Part shown: in pieces, positions 24,248 through 54,227 of the stretch | Position numbering within the stretch: position 1 is the stretch's first letter | How the letters are laid out: each line of letters starts with the position of its first letter | NCBI RefSeq assembly: GCF_964213995.1 | Contig: NW_027590498.1 | Coordinates: forward strand, 1 to 64,000 | Source of the DNA: Mustelus asterias | Taxonomy: Eukaryota | Reading direction: 5' to 3' | DNA length: 64,000 nt | Made by a program: the position numbers and the translations under genes | Notes under the pieces: generated by a model | Told to the model about the DNA's origin: nothing | The model's input: only the letters and a program-made list of their open reading frames with translations | The model's database searches: none

Positions 24248-25498
24248 ATGATGTGGAGATGCCGGCGTTGGACTGGGGTAAACACAGTAAGAAGTCTCAC
24301 AACACCAGGTTAAAGTCCAACAGGTTTATTTGGTAGCAAAAGCCATTTGCTTTCGGAGCACTGCTCCTTCATCAGGTAAGTAGGAGTTCTGTTCACAAAC
24401 AGGGCATATAAAGACACAAACTCAACTTACAAAATAATGGTTGGAATGTGAGTCTTTACAGGTAATCAAGTCTTAAAGGTACAGACAATGTGAGTGGAGA
24501 GAGGGTTAAGCACAGGTTAAAGAGATGTGTATTGTCTCCAGCCGGGACAGTTAGCGAGATTTTACAAGCCCAGGCAAGTCGTGGGGGTCACAGATAGTGT
24601 GACATGAACCCAACATCCCAGTTGAGGCTGTCGTCATGTGTGCGGAACTTGGCTATCAGTCTCTGCTCAGTGACTCTGCGTTGTCGTGTGTCGTGAAGGC
24701 CAGCTTGGAGAACGCTTACCCGAAGATCAGAGACCGAATGCCCGTGACCGCTGAAATGTTCCCCAACAGGAAGAGAACACTCTTGCCTGGTGATTGTCGA
24801 GCGGTGTTCATTCATCCGTTGTCGCAGCGTCTGCATGGTCTCCCCAATGTACCATGCCTCGGGACATCCTTCCCTGCAGCGTATCAGGTAGACAACGTTG
24901 GCCGAGTTGCAAGTGTATGTACCGTGCACCTGGTGGATGGTGTTCTCATGTGAGATGATGGCATCCGTGTCGATGATCCGGCATGTTGTGCAGAGGTTGC
25001 TGTGGCAGGGTTATGTGGTGTCGTGGTCACTGTTCTCCTGAAGGCTGGGTAGTTTGCAGCAGACAATGGTCTGTTTGAGATTGTGCGGTTGTTTGAAGGC
25101 AAGAAGTGGGGGTGTGGGGATGGCCTTGGCGAGATGTTCGTCTTCATCAATGACATGTTGAAGGCTCCGGATACGATGTCGTAGCTTCTCTGCTCCGGGG
25201 AAGTACTGGACGACGAAGGGTACTCTTTCCACAGTGTCCTGTGTTTGTCTTCTGAGGAGGTCGGTGCGGTTTTTCACTGTGGCGCGTCGGAACTGTCGAT
25301 CGTTGAGTCGAGCGCCATATCCTGTTCTTATGAACAGGATTATGTAAATTATTTTGTAAATTGAGTTTGTGTCTTTATATGCCCTGTTTGTGAACAGAAC
25401 TCCCACTTACCTGATGAAGGAGCAGCGCTCCGAAAGCTTGTGGCTTGTGCTGCCAAATAAGCCTGTTGGATTTTAACCTGGTTTTGTGAGACTTCTCA
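24248..25498 (-). mobile_element. 5'-truncated Penelope-like element with GIY-YIG endonuclease, inverted terminal repeat and 13-bp TSD
   Basis: ORF 24588-24929 NVVYLIRC..C...YIGET...LRQRMNEH...VGEHF (GIY-YIG); 24284-24436 is inverted at 25348-25498; cattattttagtg at 24235-24247 and 25499-25511. Confidence 0.92.
25406..25444 (+). ncRNA. Minimal type I hammerhead ribozyme motif in the inverted Penelope repeat
   Basis: ttac-CUGAUGA-a-ggagc(agc)gctcc-GAAA-GC-UU-gtgg. Confidence 0.75.
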
Positions 25499-29582: not shown

Positions 29583-29862
29583 CTGAGGTGGAGATGTTGG
29601 ACTGGGGTGGGCACAGTAAGAAGTCTCACAACACCAGGTTATTTGGAACCCCGAGCTTTTGGAGTGCTGATGAAGGAGCAGCTTTGACACACGGTCATCT
29701 GGACTCAAAATGTCAGTTCTTTTCTCTCTTTACAGATGCTGCCAGACCTGCTGAGATTTTCCAGCATTTTCTCTTTTGGTTTCAGATTCCAGCATCCGCA
29801 GTAATTTGCATTGATTCCAAATAACTTATTGGACTTTAACCTGATATTGTGAGACTTCTTAC
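29583..29862. mobile_element. Inverted Penelope-like mini-element containing a second repeat family, nested in a SINE
   Basis: Terminal sequences in opposite orientation; tgtgcaaactccacac duplicated at 29567-29582 and 29863-29878; internal 29681-29810 matches 31838-31972. Confidence 0.75.
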
Positions 29863-31838
29863 TGTGCAAACTCCACACAGACAGTCACTCACCCACGGCT
29901 GGAATCGAACCCAGACTCAATGAGGCAGCAGTGCTAACCACTGTGCCACAGTGAAGGGAGTTTGCCGCAAATTTCGGGTGATAACAATGGGCTGGGTGTT
30001 GCTCAGAATGTGGAGCACTGCAGCAAAGTACAGAGAGACAGAGACAGAGCAGCAGACTGGACTGAGAAATGGAGTCTGCAGACTGGAACTGGCAGCATGA
30101 GGAGAGGTTATTTAGTCTAACACTCACAGCAATCTACAACCCACCCCCATTACCGAGACAGTGAGCCAGAGATTACAAACACTCACCAACACAGCTCCAC
30201 TGAAGCGTCCCAGGAAAAAGGGGGAATCTGTGGCAGTTCCTGTCCTGATATAGCCCCAGGACTGTCACTCAAACCCCCAACCCGGCCCAGTTCACAGCTC
30301 AGCCTCTCAGCTTGCAGCTTCCTGCACCTTGAGCCAACCCTGCCCAGGTGAGGGAGGGATGTGGAACCACAGAGTGGGGGGAGGGGTGACCTCCTGCTGT
30401 GCCCCAAATAGTTTCTCCTTCCCCTCCCCTTGGCGCTCTAAGGTCTCAATGTGGATGTGTTGATGGACATTGCAGAGCCTCACTGAACTGTGCCTGTCCC
30501 TTATCCTGGGTCACCCCCTCCCCCTGGGTCCAGTGTGTTCAGTTCGCTGCTTCTTTCCCTGCTGAACCTTCAGTTGATCAAAAACAGAAAGTGCTGGAAA
30601 ACCTCAGCAGGTCTGACAGCATCTGTGATCATCCAGACTGGAAGCATTAACTCTATTCTCTCCACAGATGCTGAGATTTCCAGCATTTTCTGTTTCTGTT
30701 TCAGATTCCAGCACCCGCAGTATTTTGCTTTTATCTTAAACAAGCATTCTTTGATGGCCTTTACCCTGATTGCTCCTTTCCAGAGCTTCCCACCTTCTGC
30801 TATTGTCCCTGACTCCCACATTAACTCTGTCATTCCTCCCCTTTTCCCCACTCACTCTGTCTGAAGTCAGGCTCAGAGTTTTACCGCCATCTCCCCCTCC
30901 CCCAGCTCCCACATCCCAACACCCGGAATCTCTAACCCAGCGGTTCAAGTTTGTCTGGTGTGAGTTCAGATTTGCCGCAGCACCGACAGGATTTCACTTC
31001 AAACCAGCCGGAACTGACTGCTCACAAATCCCTAAATGTTTCTCCAGCAGCCCGGGCTTGTTAATGTTGTTTAAAGTCAGCGCCCAAATGCAGTTACTCT
31101 CCTCAGTTTAAAAAACTTCTCCGTTTAATCTAAGGGATTATTCACACCAGACACCCACCCCGCCCCCCCTCCCCCCACCCCCCGCCCCGCCCCCCCCCCC
31201 CCCCCCCGGCCACCCAGACCAGAGCTGGGGTGTCCTGAGTAAGAGACATCTGTTCCAGGTGTGACAATTCTTACACATTGTCTGGTTGACATCAAACGGA
31301 AAACGCTGGAATTATTCATGAATGAAAGCAAATTGCTGCTTTTGTCAAAGGGGTCACCTGGACTCGAAACCTCAGCTCTTTTTGTCTCCTTACAGATGCT
31401 GCCAGACCTGCTGAGATTTTCCAGCGTTTTCTCTTTTGGCTGGAAATACTCAACAAGTCAGGCAGCCTCTGTGGAGCGAGAAACAGACTGAATGTGACCT
31501 GTCATCGGAACTGGGAAATATAATATTATTTCTCGCAACTGAAAGAGACACTTTACAGCCTTCAGAACAAAACTGAGCTCAACAATTTTACACCACAATC
31601 TCTGCCCCCATTGTGTTCTGTGTTTCGTTGCTGCTTTTTTCACCTCATTTCCCTCTTGTTTACTTTACATTCAGACTATCGCTCACCGGCTATTCACACC
31701 TCATCCAGAACATCTTTTGTGTCTTTACTTGTCCCATTACCACTCGCTTTGGTCTTGGGCCGTGAATCATTTTGTCAGTTTGCGGATCTTACATTTTGTT
31801 CTTCTCCACCTCCCTCTCTCAATTCTTCAGAGGTCAGT

Positions 31839-31873
31839 CTTTGACAAAGGGTCATCTGGACTCGAAACGTCAG
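31839..31873 (+). ncRNA. Hammerhead ribozyme-like motif, U3-A8 core variant
   Basis: ct-UUGACAA-a-gggtc(atctg)gactc-GAAA-CG-UC-ag; palindromic ACGU stem III; stem I only 2 bp in this copy. Confidence 0.55.
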
Positions 31874-32410
31874 CACTTTTCTCTCCTGACAGATGCTGCC
31901 AGACCTGCTGAGATTTTCCAGCATTTTCTCTTTTGGTTTCAGATTCCAGCATTCACTGTAATTTGCTTTTATCCTGATTTTCCCTGTGTGGCTCTGGGGA
32001 GCGCTTGAGACGTTAGGGACAGAGAGAACGAGATTTTTCTCTCTCTCTCAGGGGGTCTTTGGTCTGTGGAATTCTCTTCGCCAGAGAGCAGTGTAGACAG
32101 AGTCATTGAATATTTTTAAGACTGAATAAATGGATTCCTGATTGACAAGAGAGTCAGAGGATTTGGGGGTGGGGGGAGGGGAGAGGGGACGGGGGGGAGG
32201 GGGGGGGCGGAGACAGAAAAATGGAGTTCTGGCCACAATCAGATCAGTTGGGATCTTGTCAAATGCTGCAGCAGAGGGGCCCAATGGTCCACTGCTGCTC
32301 CTCATTCATATGGATGTTTGGCTGTATGTTTCACTCTGTTTCTGCCTTCATAGAAGCTGCTGGGCCTGTTGACTATTTGTGGCATTGACTGTTTTATTTC
32401 AGATTTTAAG

Positions 32411-32578
32411 ACTCTGTAACGTATCACTGCGTAATCCAACAATTAATCCAGTTCTCCTGGATTTCTACTCTGTAACATATCACTGTGTAATCCAACAATT
32501 AATCCAGTTCTCCTGGATTTCTACTCTGTAACATATCACTGTGTAATCCAACAATTAATCCAGTTCCCCTGGATTTCT
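32411..32578. repeat. 3 x 56-bp tandem repeat
   Basis: actctgtaacatatcactgtgtaatccaacaattaatccagttctcctggatttct at 32411, 32467 and 32523. Confidence 0.9.
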
Positions 32579-32584
32579 GCTCTG

Positions 32585-34592
32585 TGGCATAGTGGTTAGC
32601 ACTGCTGCCTCACAGCGCCAGGGACCCGGGTTCGATTCAAGTTTTGGGTCACTGTCTGTGTTGAGTTTGCACATTCTCCCCGTGTCTGCATGTGTTTCCT
32701 CCGGGTGCTCCAGTTTCCTCCCACAGTCCAAAGATGGGCGGGTTATGTGGATTGGCCATACTAAATTGCCCCTTAGTTTCAGGGGGAATTAGCTAGGGTA
32801 AATGCATGGCATTAAGGGGGTGGGGCCTGGATAGGATTGTGGTCGGTGCAGACTCAATGGGCCGAATGGCCTCCTTCTGCACTGTTGGATTCTATGATTC
32901 TAGTTAGAAGTCTCACAACACCAGGTTAAAATCCAACAGGTTTATTTGGTATCACGGGCTTTCGGGACGCACGCGCATGCGCGCACGCACGCACCCGCAC
33001 ACACGGGTTGATGTCAGTCTCAGTCTAATCCAACTGCTGGGCACCAAAATAATAACAGAAGCCAATCTGAAACTCAGTGTGTGTGTTTTATTGTGAAATG
33101 AGATAATGTATAAATATATCCCCATCGCTCCGGGTGGGAGTGGAATTGATGATTTCTTGACTGTCTGTCTGCACTGCTGCCTCATAGTGCCAGGGACCTG
33201 ATTTAATTCCCGGCTTGGGTCACTGTCTGTGCAGAGTCTGCATGTTCTCCCCGTGTCTGTGTGGGTTCCCTCCAGGTGCTCTGGTTTCCTCCCATGGTCT
33301 GAAAAATGCACTGTTTAGGTGCATTGACCCGAACAGTTGCCAGACTGTGGTGACAAGGGGAATTTCACAGTGTTAATTGCAGTGTTAATGTAAGCCTTAC
33401 TTGTGACTAATAAATAAACTTTAACTTTTAACTTGAATTTTGTGATCTCATAGAAACGTAGAATCTTACAGTGCAGAAGAAGGACATTCAGCCCATCGAG
33501 TCTGCACCAACCACAATCCCACCCAGGCCCTATCCCCGTAACTCCACATATTTAACCTGCTAATCCTCCTGACACTAAGGTCAATTTTGCATGGCCAGTC
33601 AACCTAAGCAGCACATCTTTGGACTGTGGAAGGAAACCGGAGCACCCGGAGGAAACCCACACAGACACGGGGAGAATGTGCAGACTCTGCACAGACAGTG
33701 ACCCAAGCCGGGAATTGAACTCAGGTCCCTGGCGCTGTGAGGCAGTAGTGCTAACCACTGTGCCACCATGCCGCCCTCATCTTCCAGAACAAATAGTAAA
33801 TTGTTGAGATTATAAAGTTTGAATTGTAATATCTAATGGTGTAAAGTATCTGGGAGCAGAGTGGATGTGATAAAGGCTGGAATACAGACTGTGGGAATGA
33901 GGCTGAAACTGCTGTGCTCAGTGAATGGTTCTTATTGGAGGGAGGGATGGGAGGAGGGAGAGAGGGATGGATGGTGAGAGGGAGGGATGGAGAAAGGGAG
34001 GGAGTGTGAGGTGGATGGAGGGAGAGAGGGATGAATGGGGGAGAATGTGAAAAGCTGAAGTTTACATTTGAGGAGGTTCCCAGTCTCTCTGATCTCCAGT
34101 CTCCAGCTGAACTGGGGAAGCTTTTGCACAGACTGTGCTGCTGCTGTTTCGCCTCCTGTCCACCAGGGGTCGCTATATGCCTCCCAGCTGCTGCTCCTCC
34201 CAGTGTCACCACTTGCCCACTCCAGCCCCTCCAGTACACCTCACTGGAGCCCCAGGCCATTCTTGCCATCCTGCCAGGTCTCGGGTACTGAGGCCAATAG
34301 TAAAGTTTATTTATGTGTCACAACTAGGTTTACATTCACACTGTAATGAAGTCACTGTGAAAATCACTTTGTTGCCACACTCCGGCACCTGTTCGGGTAC
34401 ACTGAGGGAGAATTCAGCATGGCCAATGCACCTAACCAGCCTGTCTTTTGAACTGTGGGAGGAAACTGGAGCAAATCCACACAGACACGTGGAAAATGTG
34501 CAAACTCCACACAGTGACCCAGCCGGGAATCGAATCCAAACCCCTGGTGCTGTGAGGCAGCAGTGCTAACCACTGGGCCACTGTACCACCCA
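32585..34592. mobile_element. Cluster of tRNA-derived SINE copies
   Basis: Copies at about 32585-32900 (+), 33170-33430 (+), 33450-33775 (-) and 34300-34590 (-), plus a Penelope terminal fragment at 32903-32966. Confidence 0.8.
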
Positions 34593-43799: not shown

Positions 43800-44689
43800 T
43801 TATTAGTCACAAGTAAGGCTTACATTAACACTGCAATGAAGTTACTGTGTAATTCCCCTAGTCGCAACAGTCCAGCGCCTGTTCGGGTCAATGCACCTAA
43901 ACAGCGCATCTTTCAGAATGTGGGAGGAAACTGGAGCACCCAGAGGAAACTCACGCAGACACGGGGAGAACATGCAAACTCCACACAGACAATGACCCAA
44001 GCCGGGAATCGAACCTGGGTCCCTGGCGTTGTGAGGCAGCAGTGTTAACCTACTGTGCCACTGTGCCATCCCCGTGTCTGAAGGTGGGGTTATGTCCTGA
44101 AACTCTTCCCACACTGTGAGCAGCTGAACGGTGATCTGCTGCTTCCGGCTTCTTCCCACAATCTCCAACAAAGAAAGCAGCTCCCTCCGCCAGCCACCCA
44201 CACAACCCGCCCAGATAGATAAAAGCAAAATACTGCGGATGCTGGAATTTCAAACAAAAACAGAAAATGCTGGAAAATCTCAGCAGGTCTGACAGCATCT
44301 GTGGCAAGCCAACGTTTTGAGTCTAGATGACCCTTCCTCAGAGCCGATTGACTGCAGGTTCAGAGATGTGGATTCAGGGTTAGGGAAACTGGGAACTTGA
44401 TCCAGTGGTCTAGCGGAAGGGAGGGAAACAGCAGAGGAATCTGATCAGATTGTCTCAATCTTAGTAACGAAGAAGCTCCATGAGCTCCTCACACTTGTTG
44501 GAGGTGAGGATGGAGGAGACAGGGGAGAGGGAGAGCCCTTCAAAAAAAACTAACTTGTTTCAGAGATATTGAAGAGTTGGCATTGTATTTAATACATAGT
44601 TGATTTATTTGACATTTATTTTCAATTTCCTAAACCTAGTCTGAGAAGTCTCTCATTGGTCAGAATACGTTGCTTGTAGATCATTTCAA

Positions 44690-45937: not shown

Positions 45938-46870
45938 TTTCAAAATCCAATGATATTCTGGTTAAAATGAGCGACTGTCAGATCTTGATGTAATGCTCAC
46001 AGTGAGCTTCGTGACTGCAAATCCTCCTGTTCTAATCCCCTGTGAAATTGATTTAAAATAGAAAAAAGGGAATGAGAGAGAATCCACAAAAACACAAACA
46101 CAGGTCATGAAATTGAGGCCAGCACTAGGAAAAAGTGACCATTAAAACTGGTGCGTTGTCATAACCCAACTGATTCACTCATGTCCTTCACGGAAGGAAA
46201 CCCGCCACTTGGTCTAAAGTTTTAAAGTTTATTCATTTATGTCACAAGTAGGCTTACATTAACACTGCAATGAAGTTACTGTGAAAATCCTCTAGTTGCC
46301 ACACCCGGCGCCTGTTCAGGTACACTGAAGGAAAATTTAGCATGGCCAATGCACCTAACCAGCACGTCTTTCGGACTGTGGGAGGAAACCAGAGAACCCA
46401 GAGGAAACCCACGCAGACACGGGGAGAATGTGCAGACTCCATGCAGAAAGTGACCAAAGCCAGGATTCAAACCCGGGTCCCTAGCGCTGTGAGGCAGCAG
46501 TGCTAACCACTGTGCCACCCGACCTAGAATGTAGCCTCAATGGGAGGAGGAGAGTTGGGGTGGGGGAGAGGGCCTAGGTAAGACACTCTGTCACAAAGCC
46601 GGTGCAGACTTGATGGGCTGAATAGCCTCCTTCTGCACTGTAGGGATTCTATGAATGGACTCAAGGCTGGGTGAAGCATATTTTTAACCCACACGGGAGC
46701 CAAGGGTTACCAGTGGTGTGGGTATGCAGGGCAGGGTCAGGAAAGTTGTGTGCACACAAGCCATGATCCTGCTGAATTGAAAGTATTATTGATGGACCGA
46801 ATGGCCTCTTCCTGAACCTAATTCTGATGTTCCTCTGATGGAGGGACACGTGGCCATGAGCAGATGGTGA

Positions 46871-47163
46871 CCCTGAGCCCGGGCCCGTCGCCACGTCCTG
46901 AGCCCGGGCCCGTCACCACACCCTGAACCCGGGCTCGTCACGTGCCCTGAACCCGGGCTCGTCGCCGTGCCCTGAGCCCGGGCCTGTCACCGTGCCCTGA
47001 ACCCGGGCCCGTCACCGTGCCCTGAACCCGGGCCTGTCACCGCGCCCTGAACCCGGGCCCATCACCGTGCCCCGAACCCGGGCCCTGAACCCGGGCCTGT
47101 CGCCGCGCCCTGAACCTGGGCCTGTCACCGTGCCCTGAACCCGGGCCTGTCACCGCGCCCTGT
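46871..47163. repeat. GC-rich 25-bp minisatellite (about 12 units)
   Basis: Unit cctgaacccgggcctgtcaccgtgc with variants and one partial unit. Confidence 0.9.
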
Positions 47164-47244
47164 GCTCAGACTGAGGAGACAATGATTTTCTCTCCTGGTA
47201 ACTGGGACCCTGAAACCCCGCCCACTATCTATTGCGTCACGGGG

Positions 47245-51700: not shown

Positions 51701-51942
51701 TTTAATTTGGAAGCGCGATCAATACGAGGTAGAGGGCGGCGTGCGGGGAATGATAAATGTGGCGGGTGGGTGGAGAGGCTTTGTAAACATGTTGTTCAAT
51801 CCCAAACCCCGGAAATGAACTTCCCGGTCCCCCCCCTTTGTACCAAATGGAGCGGCAGCTTGTAGTGTTAGACCCGGGCTGACTGCCGCCATTGAGGCTG
51901 CATGTGGGAGGCCGGCAGGGATTGTGATCGGAGAGTGAAGCC

Positions 51943-52306
51943 CTGACGTCACAATGGAATGGGTGGGGGTGTGATGTCACAATGGAATGGGCGATGGTGT
52001 GATGTCACAATGGAATGGGCGATGGTGTGACGTCACAATGGAATGGGTGAGGGTGTGATGTCACAATGGAATGGGTGATGGTGTGACGTCACAATGGAAT
52101 GGGTGAGGGTGGGACGTCACAATGGAATGGGTGAGGGTGGGACGTCACAATGGAATGGGTGAGGGTGGGACGTCACAATGGAATGGGTGAGGGTGGGACG
52201 TCACAATGGAATGGGTGAGGGTGGGACGTCACAATGGAAATGCGAGAGGGTGTGACATCACAATGGAATGGGTGATAGTGTGACGTCACAATGGAATGGG
52301 TGAGGG
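51943..52306. repeat. 28-bp minisatellite (about 13 units) with CRE core
   Basis: Unit tgtgacgtcacaatggaatgggtgaggg. Confidence 0.92.
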
Positions 52307-53079
52307 TTCCAGATGAGCTGAGACTGGGCTGGAGTCGGGCGATGGCACTGACATGTGGCCCGGTGGCACAGTGGTTAGTGCAGCTGCCTAACAGCGCCAG
52401 GGACCCGGGTTCAATTCCAGCCTCGGGTCGCTGTCTGTGCAGAGTTTCTACATTCTCCCCGTGTCTGTGTGGGTTTCCTCCGGGTGTTCCGGTTTCCTTC
52501 CACAGTCCAAAGATGTGCCGGTTAGACGGATTGGCCATGATAAATTGCCGCTTGGTATCAGGGGGATTAACAGGTAAATATGTGGATAGGGCCTGGATGG
52601 GATTTTTGTCGGTGCAGGCTCGATGGGCTGAATGGCCTCCTTCAACACTGTATTTTATTAATCATTATTGTTAATTAATTACTATCAATGCTTCTATGAA
52701 TGAAGGTGGTCTTGATGATGATGTGGACATGTGGCTGGAAGCTCATCTTGGGATGAACTATTTCACCCTGGTTGTCAACAGTGTGGTTCAGCCTCAGACA
52801 GTTGCCAGGTGGAGAGATAAAGTTGTTGGCGAGGGAGTGGAGTTTGTAGTGGGGACTGAACACAATGGGTTCAGTCTTCCCAGTATTTGTATGAAATAAA
52901 TTTCTGTTCTTTCAGTACTGGATGTCAGACAAGTCAGGATGGTGTGTGAGTTGGAGAGGAACTTGGAGCTGATCATGTTCACAGGGTTTGGAAATTCTGT
53001 CAAAGTTCCTGTTGAGTTGTAGATGTATAAAATCTCTCTCCTCACCTCCGGCCTCTCCTACTTCTCTCTGTTTCCACTC

Positions 53080-54156: not shown

Positions 54157-54227
54157 GTTTCTGTAGTGAAGTGGCTTCACGTTCGCCTGAAACGCAGAAG
54201 TCCCCGGGTCAGAACCGGGCAGAAACT
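54157..54227 (+). pseudogene. tRNA-Val-derived pseudogene with GAA anticodon
   Basis: gtttctgtagtgaagtggcttcacgttcgcctGAAacgcagaagtccccgggtcagaaccgggcagaaac: tRNA-Val body, paired acceptor stem, damaged T-loop/B-box. Confidence 0.75.

What the first reader, a model, noticed from the sequence alone, without database searches (positions are those of the whole stretch)
31839..31972. Second repeat family with a compensated U3-A8 hammerhead core
Seen: the repeat head reads UUGACAA-a-stem II-GAAA-CG-UC. Copies at 29684 (TTGACAC) and 31342 (TTGTCAA) also have T3 and A8, while the 44308-44344 (-) copy has canonical C3/G8 (CUGAGGA). Established: C3-G8 is a tertiary Watson-Crick pair in the hammerhead core, and U3-A8 can substitute. 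Inference: a subfamily amplified with a compensated core, suggesting ribozyme function was needed for its mobility. This may be an undescribed non-autonomous ribozyme-bearing retroelement lineage. Caveat: G8 to A could be CpG decay.
Basis: partly seen in the sequence, partly recalled or inferred. Interest (0 to 1): 0.7.

Follow-up and report, generated by a model that had tools for sequence, protein, structure and literature searches.

The report
Shark Penelope end, U3-A8 hammerhead
This repeat is the short leftover end of an abundant protein-coding Penelope-type jumping gene, whose tiny hammerhead RNA motif carries a swapped core base pair already described in flatworm Penelope elements; the swap likely reflects selection on the motif in the source element, but this copy is likely inert and cutting is untested.

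Summary
The 134-bp repeat is the terminal repeat (pLTR) of a roughly 3.3-kb Penelope-like retrotransposon (Neptune-type anatomy) that encodes RT and GIY-YIG. Full-length copies carry the same U3-A8 head at both ends. U3-A8 was fixed in the source element: 2,231 exact copies against 51 C3-A8, 39 U3-G8 and 2 C3-G8. Copy-by-copy CpG decay is therefore ruled out. The sister subfamily is C3-G8 and shows symmetric CpG decay. Within each subfamily, positions 3 and 8 vary independently, so the covariation is one inherited event. All six differences between the two hammerheads are structure-compatible (0.2% of random trials), which points to selection on the fold. 'Needed for mobility' is not shown: 16 of 30 copies begin at the likely RNA start, upstream of the ribozyme, and none at the cut. 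A published in vitro study found cleavage dispensable for insertion. U3-A8 hammerheads in Penelope pLTRs were published in 2014 (Schistosoma). All window copies have broken hammerheads. This scan has noted the same family before, in this genome and in others. New member of a known kind; low interest.

The parts
31839..31972 (+). Focal solo pLTR stub (subfamily A): hammerhead head plus tail, ending at the outer of two 3'-end sites
   Evidence: 93-94% identical to both pLTRs of full-length copy L239; itself multiplied inside a segmental duplicate of the zinc-finger cluster
31841..31847 (+). Core U3 U4 G5 A6 C7 A8 A9 (U3 at 31841, A8 at 31846)
31848..31863 (+). Extra A between positions 9 and 10.1, then helix II GGGUC/GACUC with 5-nt loop
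31864..31875 (+). GAAA, palindromic minimal helix III (A-C-G-U), C17, predicted cut 31871/31872, 3' strand of helix I (AGCA here; AGCU in the family)
   Evidence: family form
31876..31972 (+). pLTR tail: pyrimidine tract, ACAG-ATG, and two family 3'-end clusters about 35 nt apart (likely RT initiation sites)
   Evidence: 3' ends 17 of 30 at +89..+102 and 13 of 30 at +128..+133 from U3
29682..29815 (+). Second subfamily-A stub, core TTGACAC, decayed; it interrupts a copy of the other (GGAGCAG-stem) hammerhead family at that motif's helix II
31341..31439 (+). Third subfamily-A stub (short 3' end), core TTGTCAA, decayed
44218..44344 (-). Sister subfamily-B stub with C3-G8 core (CTGAGGA), G12A decayed
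30581..30735 (.). Headless inverted pair of B-type tails (30581-30628 minus, 30629-30735 plus)

Best explanation
The repeat is the terminal repeat (pLTR) stub of an RT- and GIY-YIG-encoding Penelope-like retrotransposon whose source element had a fixed U3-A8 hammerhead core, likely reached from C3-G8 by one compensated double change that likely kept a fold under selection. Shown: the anatomy pLTR-ORF-3'UTR-pLTR; the fixed U3-A8 state; C3-G8 in the sister and older relatives; two 3'-end clusters; 5' ends piling at AGCU, 30 nt behind a TATAAAT. Inferred: transcription starts at that AGCU, so the hammerhead forms the first ~36 nt of the RNA and recurs near its 3' end. The element's protein nicks DNA and starts reverse transcription at one of two internal tail sites. 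Starting in the 5' pLTR tail gives the abundant ~100/134-bp solo stubs such as this one; starting in the 3' tail gives longer copies. Most templates are uncut. The likely route to U3-A8 is G8A by deamination of the C7-G8 CpG in a source copy, rescued by C3U (order not shown). The likely selected role is occasional, protein- or dimer-assisted cleavage (possibly circularisation) that favours promoter-bearing, more-than-unit-length copies. It is not a requirement for each insertion. The window copies are inert fossils.
For: ORF attached: 2 of the first 30 exact-head copies run upstream into a recognisable endonuclease reading frame reaching the AEH motif, 2 more into its last codons. Long copies show RT motifs and GIY-YIG; GIY-YIG 25.3 bits against cutoff 22.6, RVT_1 weak at E 0.003. 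Direct pLTRs 3,250 bp apart in L239 and ~3,290 in L240, both with U3-A8. Fixed core: 2,231 / 51 / 39 / 2. 0 of 25 tail-selected copies covering the core have G8, while the two true CpGs of the motif are intact in 21 of 29 and 18 of 29. Sister B: first 100 of 1,308 matches give C3G8 68, C3A8 22, U3G8 4, U3A8 1, with CA 21 versus TG 20. No amplified mismatched source seen. A and B differ at 29-39% of four-fold sites (19 of 66, 18 of 46; includes decay of the single B copies), yet the six hammerhead differences are 3, 8, two loop-2 bases, H17 and a helix-I wobble; 0.2% of random six-change sets keep the descriptor, and P(U3 given A8) is 5-8%. Older relatives have AGUU/AACU helix I, a compensated change. 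5' ends: 16 of 30 at AGCU, 9 further upstream, 0 at the cut. 6 of the 7 long copies that keep a 5' head carry sequence upstream of AGCU.
Against: No cleavage was measured. The compensated swap is a single evolutionary event here: no second origin among 77 matches of a looser pattern. The whole pLTR is conserved (8 differences in about 96 nt of tail), so part of the motif's conservation could come from promoter or protein-binding constraints. The simulation is post hoc and uses my own descriptor. The monomer's best predicted fold sequesters the core (z -1.1). No copy with an intact ORF was found among those fetched. RVT_1 is below its cutoff. The transcription start is inferred from a TATA match and copy ends, not from RNA.
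Confidence: 0.7

Rival explanations
1. Neutral history: the hammerhead had already lost its function in this lineage. G8A (CpG) and C3U were fixed by chance in a successful source, and the motif looks conserved only because the pLTR is constrained as promoter and protein-binding site.
For: One event only. CpG makes G8A the commonest lesion (22 of 100 B copies). Templates are mostly uncut. Ribozyme mutants did not affect insertion of an Anolis PLE in vitro. The tail is nearly as conserved as the head.
Against: P(U3 given A8) is only 5-8%, and none of the other four changes breaks the fold (0.2% overall). The same swap occurs in unrelated Schistosoma PLEs and other natural hammerheads.
Confidence: 0.2
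2. One reading: cleavage is an obligatory step of every retrotransposition event, and the 134-bp unit is itself a non-autonomous retrozyme-like element.
For: Solo ~100/134-bp copies are the majority class (21 of 30 lack upstream sequence). Retrozymes are described as PLE pLTR derivatives (bioRxiv 10.64898/2026.07.22.740005, abstract).
Against: The identical head flanks an RT + GIY-YIG ORF. No head-to-tail tandem of the short unit was seen in the 30 + 30 copies inspected. Solo copies start upstream of the ribozyme, not at its cut, and end at the two internal sites expected for PLE RT initiation.
Confidence: 0.05
3. One reading: each copy lost G8 independently by CpG decay of a U3-G8 or C3-G8 source.
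For: This does happen in sister subfamily B.
Against: In A, G8 survives in only 41 exact-background copies against at least 2,231 with A8, and TG-type decay products number 8. True CpGs in the same copies are 62-72% intact with CA about equal to TG.
Confidence: 0.01

Closest known systems
Minimal type I hammerheads (min-HHR) in pLTRs of metazoan Penelope-like elements, including the U3-A8 variant of Schistosoma mansoni Cercyon PLEs (Cervera and De la Pena 2014, PMC4209133; parts 1-2 of 4 read)
   Same: 4-bp helix I, extra nucleotide between 9 and 10.1, G10.1-C11.1, palindromic 15.2-16.2, position in the pLTR, mostly solo copies, U3-A8 core swap (about 1,300 hits there)
   Different: Vertebrate host; helix II of 5 bp rather than 7-8; here the U3-A8 state is tied to one countable subfamily with a C3-G8 sister. 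The parts read name no shark elements; supplements not seen.
Neptune-clade EN+ Penelope-like elements (Craig et al. 2021, PMC8557442, passages; Arkhipova et al. 2013, PMC3846280, passages)
   Same: Single RT-linker-GIY-YIG ORF, DKG motif, CX4CxxC linker finger, CCHH, direct pLTRs, partial tandems, head-to-head inversions, TATA plus initiator in the pLTR, optional 30-40 bp tail
   Different: Clade placed by motifs only, no tree built; Nematis also has a linker finger. Repbase/Dfam name could not be checked.
PAc (Poseidon of Anolis carolinensis; Frangieh et al. 2024, PMC11167929, parts 1-2 of 4 read)
   Same: Two internal 3' ends about 35 nt apart; uncut RNA as the apparent main template
   Different: PAc has a C3-G8 core and its ORF starts in stem II; here the first ATG lies 18 nt behind the cut; Poseidon lacks the linker finger.
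Animal non-LTR retrozymes (PMC7229834, passages; bioRxiv 10.64898/2026.07.22.740005, part 1 of 5 and passages)
   Same: Type I hammerhead, PLE-related, short dispersed monomers
   Different: Retrozymes are protein-free tandem repeats with canonical hammerheads; this unit is the end of a coding element and was not seen in head-to-tail arrays.

Membership tests
EN+ Penelope-like element | RT plus C-terminal GIY-YIG in one ORF | tested here: met
   RT motifs (IKPADKG, LPKIHK, GVAMG, YIDD) then GIY-YIG, in pieces across decayed copies; GIY-YIG above Pfam cutoff, RVT_1 below it
EN+ Penelope-like element | Direct pLTRs flanking the ORF; partial tandem and inverted 5' structures | tested here: met
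   L239 and L240 pLTR pairs; L237 partial tandem; many inverted heads
EN+ Penelope-like element | Optional 30-40 bp tail (two 3' ends) | tested here: met
   17 of 30 and 13 of 30 ends in two clusters
Neptune clade | CX2-5CxxC linker finger and CCHH | tested here: met
   CNRRRCNIC linker; CSQC...AEH...ACHF; definition
Neptune clade | RT phylogeny | not tested
   No reference PLE proteins were fetched
Minimal type I hammerhead (min-HHR) | Core, helices I and II, extra nucleotide, G10.1-C11.1, palindromic 15.2-16.2 | tested here: met
   Met by the family form; not met by any window copy
Minimal type I hammerhead (min-HHR) | Self-cleavage activity | not testable with these tools
   Needs a bench assay. 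The indirect genomic footprint test was inconclusive
Non-LTR retrozyme | No protein coding capacity | tested here: not met
   The head is continuous with the RT + GIY-YIG ORF
Non-LTR retrozyme | Head-to-tail tandem repeats of the hammerhead unit | tested here: not met
   Not seen in 60 inspected copies (some overlap between the two sets); no genome-wide tandem search was run
Non-LTR retrozyme | Expression as circular RNA | not testable with these tools
   Only assembled contigs were offered

The most novel reading that the evidence does not exclude
This family is a natural compensatory-mutation experiment in a vertebrate germ line. The C3-G8 to U3-A8 swap shows that hammerhead catalysis was selected in the source lineage even though nearly all inserted copies came from uncut RNA. 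The ribozyme would then act only on the rare route that makes new source elements: cut-and-ligate circles giving more-than-unit-length copies that regain the upstream TATA promoter. That would explain why PLEs keep a ribozyme that is dispensable for insertion in vitro.
Probability: 0.3. Interest if true: 0.55.

Novelty: new member of a known kind. Interest (0 to 1): 0.25.

Why it matters
As it stands it is an ordinary PLE terminal fragment with a published core variant. Its modest value is as a clean test pair. Two sister subfamilies in one genome (U3-A8 and C3-G8, each with thousands of copies) give sequence evidence that the PLE hammerhead fold is under selection, and ready natural constructs for the open question of what PLE hammerheads do, given that cleavage was dispensable for insertion in vitro.

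Tried and rejected
Rfam scan: no hammerhead model matches. Best-hit genome search with the focal copy returned segmental duplicates of the zinc-finger cluster, not independent insertions, so these were dropped from all counts. Linkage among copies as a test of selection was rejected as non-diagnostic: within A (Fisher p 0.24) and within B (p 1.0) positions 3 and 8 vary independently, as expected for neutral decay after insertion. Search for an amplified mismatched intermediate: none evident among 100 of 113 and 93 of 93 listed matches, read by eye. Search for a second U3-A8 origin in older relatives: the 15 U3-A8 matches among 77 all have A- or B-like loops (hand count). Cleavage footprint in subfamily A (a lead from earlier notes): of 30 loci examined out of 439 matches, 4 start at the cut but all as the same fold-back junction, 1 is an AGCU-to-AGCU deletion, and 0 start there against unrelated flank. 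The fold-back can arise from the AGCU palindrome without cleavage, so the test is inconclusive. Target-site duplications for the three window copies: none convincing. Folding z-scores of monomers are not significant (-1.1 to +0.9). Expression: no RNA holder listed; only contigs were offered. The second read-laying could not report core positions because they lay too near the ends. Przybilski and Hammann 2007 was not held; its result is known to me only through PMC3088659. Literature searches for a shark instance found none, but the library lacks most subscription papers, Repbase and Dfam, and no supplements were seen.

Full report
Observation. The motif is present as described: TTGACAA at 31841-31847, an extra A, helix II GGGTC/GACTC, GAAA, CG-TC, with the predicted cut at 31871/31872. 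The copies at 29684 and 31342 have T3 and A8, and the minus-strand copy near 44344 has C3 and G8. None of the four is an intact hammerhead. The focal copy has lost the 5' AG of helix I and has AGCA for AGCT; the others carry core substitutions (A9C/G10.1C/G12A; A6U/G16.2C; G12A). The window is contig C466 of a 3.68-Gb genome, in a cluster of zinc-finger genes. That the host is a shark is my recall of its repeat types, not a call result. The 40 best genome hits of the focal copy are 96-100% identical; the 29 others inspected share its flanks. They are segmental duplicates and were left out of all counts.

Two subfamilies. Randomly placed stretches (820 kb) showed subfamily A (U3-A8, loop AUCUG, C17) and sister B (C3, loop AUCYA, U17), plus older relatives. 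Exact-pattern counts in the A background are: U3A8 2,231 (37-nt pattern, control 0); non-U3 90, of which C3A8 51, C3G8 2, C3C8 2, G3 26, A3 9; U3 with non-A8 62, of which G8 39, C8 13, U8 10. The last two patterns are 35 nt, so 2,231 is a slight undercount for the comparison; the breakdowns are hand counts of the listings. A tail 46-mer has 5,197 exact matches. In the B background the first 100 of 1,308 matches give C3G8 68, C3A8 22, U3G8 4, U3A8 1, others 5, with CA 21 and TG 20 at positions 7-8, the symmetric signature of CpG decay. In 30 A copies chosen only by their tail, 0 of 25 covering the core have G8, whereas the motif's two real CpGs are intact in 21 of 29 and 18 of 29. So A8 and U3 were fixed in A's source, and the CpG caveat fails copy by copy. 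Within each subfamily the two positions vary independently (p 0.24 and 1.0), as expected for neutral decay. No amplified mismatched intermediate and no second origin was seen. Older relatives are mostly C3-G8, so U3-A8 is likely derived.

What the repeat belongs to. A copies extend upstream through a pyrimidine-rich 3' UTR into a GIY-YIG C-terminus, then RT. A search with the RT 5' region recovered copies with the same U3-A8 head in front of the ORF. L239 and L240 have direct pLTRs 3,250 and about 3,290 bp apart, and L237 is a partial tandem. Pfam: GIY-YIG 25.3 bits (cutoff 22.6) in 1 of 5 pieces and RVT_1 17.8 bits (cutoff 29.6) in 1 of 5; earlier, weak hits in 2 of 4. The linker CX4CxxC and CCHH motifs fit Neptune as defined in PMC8557442 (passages). 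All fetched ORFs are broken; long copies are about 8% from their majority. The element is therefore autonomous in design, though no intact copy was seen. B is also a coding PLE.

How the short copies arise. 3' ends fall in two clusters, 17 of 30 at +89..+102 and 13 of 30 at +128..+133, matching the two internal RT initiation sites and optional tail described for the Anolis element (PMC11167929, parts 1-2 read). 5' ends: 16 of 30 at the AGCU that opens helix I, 9 further upstream, 4 inside the motif, 1 beyond it, 0 at the cut. A TATAAAT lies 30 nt before that AGCU in A and in B copy L155. Contigs from coded organisms also pile their loose ends there. I infer that this is the transcription start, that solo stubs are reverse transcripts begun in the 5' pLTR tail, and that templates are mostly uncut. 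This agrees with the in vitro result that ribozyme mutants still insert and that cleavage is protein-assisted. Six of the 7 long copies that keep a 5' head (of 9 fetched) carry sequence upstream of AGCU. A unit-length linear RNA cannot supply that; circles, tandem read-through or template jumps can. Circularisation by the hammerhead is the published hypothesis (PMC4209133).

Selection on the fold. A and B differ at 19 of 66 and 18 of 46 four-fold sites (single decayed B copies, so an overestimate), and their 3' UTRs barely align. In the 39-nt motif they differ at six places: 3, 8, two loop-2 bases, H17 (C/U) and a helix-I wobble. Random six-change sets keep my descriptor in 859 and 799 of 400,000 trials, and U3 accompanies A8 in 5-8%. 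Older relatives show a compensated helix I (AGUU/AACU). Against this: it is one event, the test is post hoc, the tail is also conserved (8 differences in about 96 nt), and monomer folds are unremarkable with the core sequestered. Contigs of four coded organisms lie on the A-type stretch with no difference listed at 3 or 8 among the 40 rows shown (11 not shown), and one organism has U17 nearly fixed. This is weak evidence that the U3-A8 lineage is shared among species.

Cleavage footprint. Earlier notes report a cut-site excess of 5' ends in the other hammerhead family of this genome. For A, 439 copies lose similarity just before the cut. Of 30 examined, 4 start at the cut, all as one fold-back junction (full inverted head joined to AGCU); 1 is a deletion between the two AGCU; none starts there against unrelated flank. 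The palindromic AGCU explains these without cleavage, so the test is inconclusive.

Comparison and verdict. U3-A8 minimal hammerheads in PLE pLTRs were reported for Schistosoma, about 1,300 hits (PMC4209133). Natural U3-A8 covariation and prior in vitro activity are stated in PMC3088659 (passages). My searches found no paper on a shark instance, but Repbase, Dfam, supplements and most subscription papers were out of reach. Earlier notes of this scan reached the same reading on other DNA; they are not independent support. Verdict: observation confirmed, interpretation partly supported, new member of a known kind, interest 0.25.

Noticed in passing
window 29584-29875: The 29682 copy sits inside a copy of the other hammerhead family, right at that motif's helix II (GGAGCAG), with AGC shared at the junction and about 14 nt of the host motif missing: one PLE stub landed in another's ribozyme.
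   Followed up: partly
window 24375 (-), 25411 (+), 53205 (-), 9068 (-): Copies of the GGAGCAG-stem hammerhead family with intact C3-G8 cores. In 930 kb of random stretches, 38 of 40 such motifs passing my scan are C3-G8. A decayed Penelope endonuclease piece lies at 24639-25100 (-).
   Followed up: partly
L331, L335, L338, L342; L282, L300, L308: Recurrent head-to-head junctions join at the palindromic AGCU, either start-to-start or start-to-cut-site. This would fit two cDNAs made by a dimeric enzyme annealing through AGCU ends.
   Followed up: partly
window 31540-31830: Sequence just upstream of the focal copy resembles, by eye, the endonuclease end and 3' UTR of an older related PLE; the BLAST check showed only tail matches at 31440-31494 among its top hits.
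   Followed up: partly
window 30335-33475 and L002-L030: The focal region is part of a segmental duplicate present on many small contigs of the zinc-finger cluster (89-99% identical over 0.9-3.1 kb).
   Followed up: partly
window 54157-54227 (+): tRNA match in Rfam (41.6 bits) at the edge of a GC-rich stretch (54-56 kb, GC 0.63).
   Followed up: no
window 51879-52335 and 46842-47212: Tandem repeats of 28 nt (containing TGACGTCA) and of about 25 nt; strong G-skew from 56 to 64 kb with 2-kb direct repeats.
   Followed up: no
window 31876-31960: The pLTR tail has two or three pyrimidine-tract/AG motifs and a short ATG-initiated 22-codon frame in the family form; splicing into the main ORF was not worked out.
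   Followed up: no
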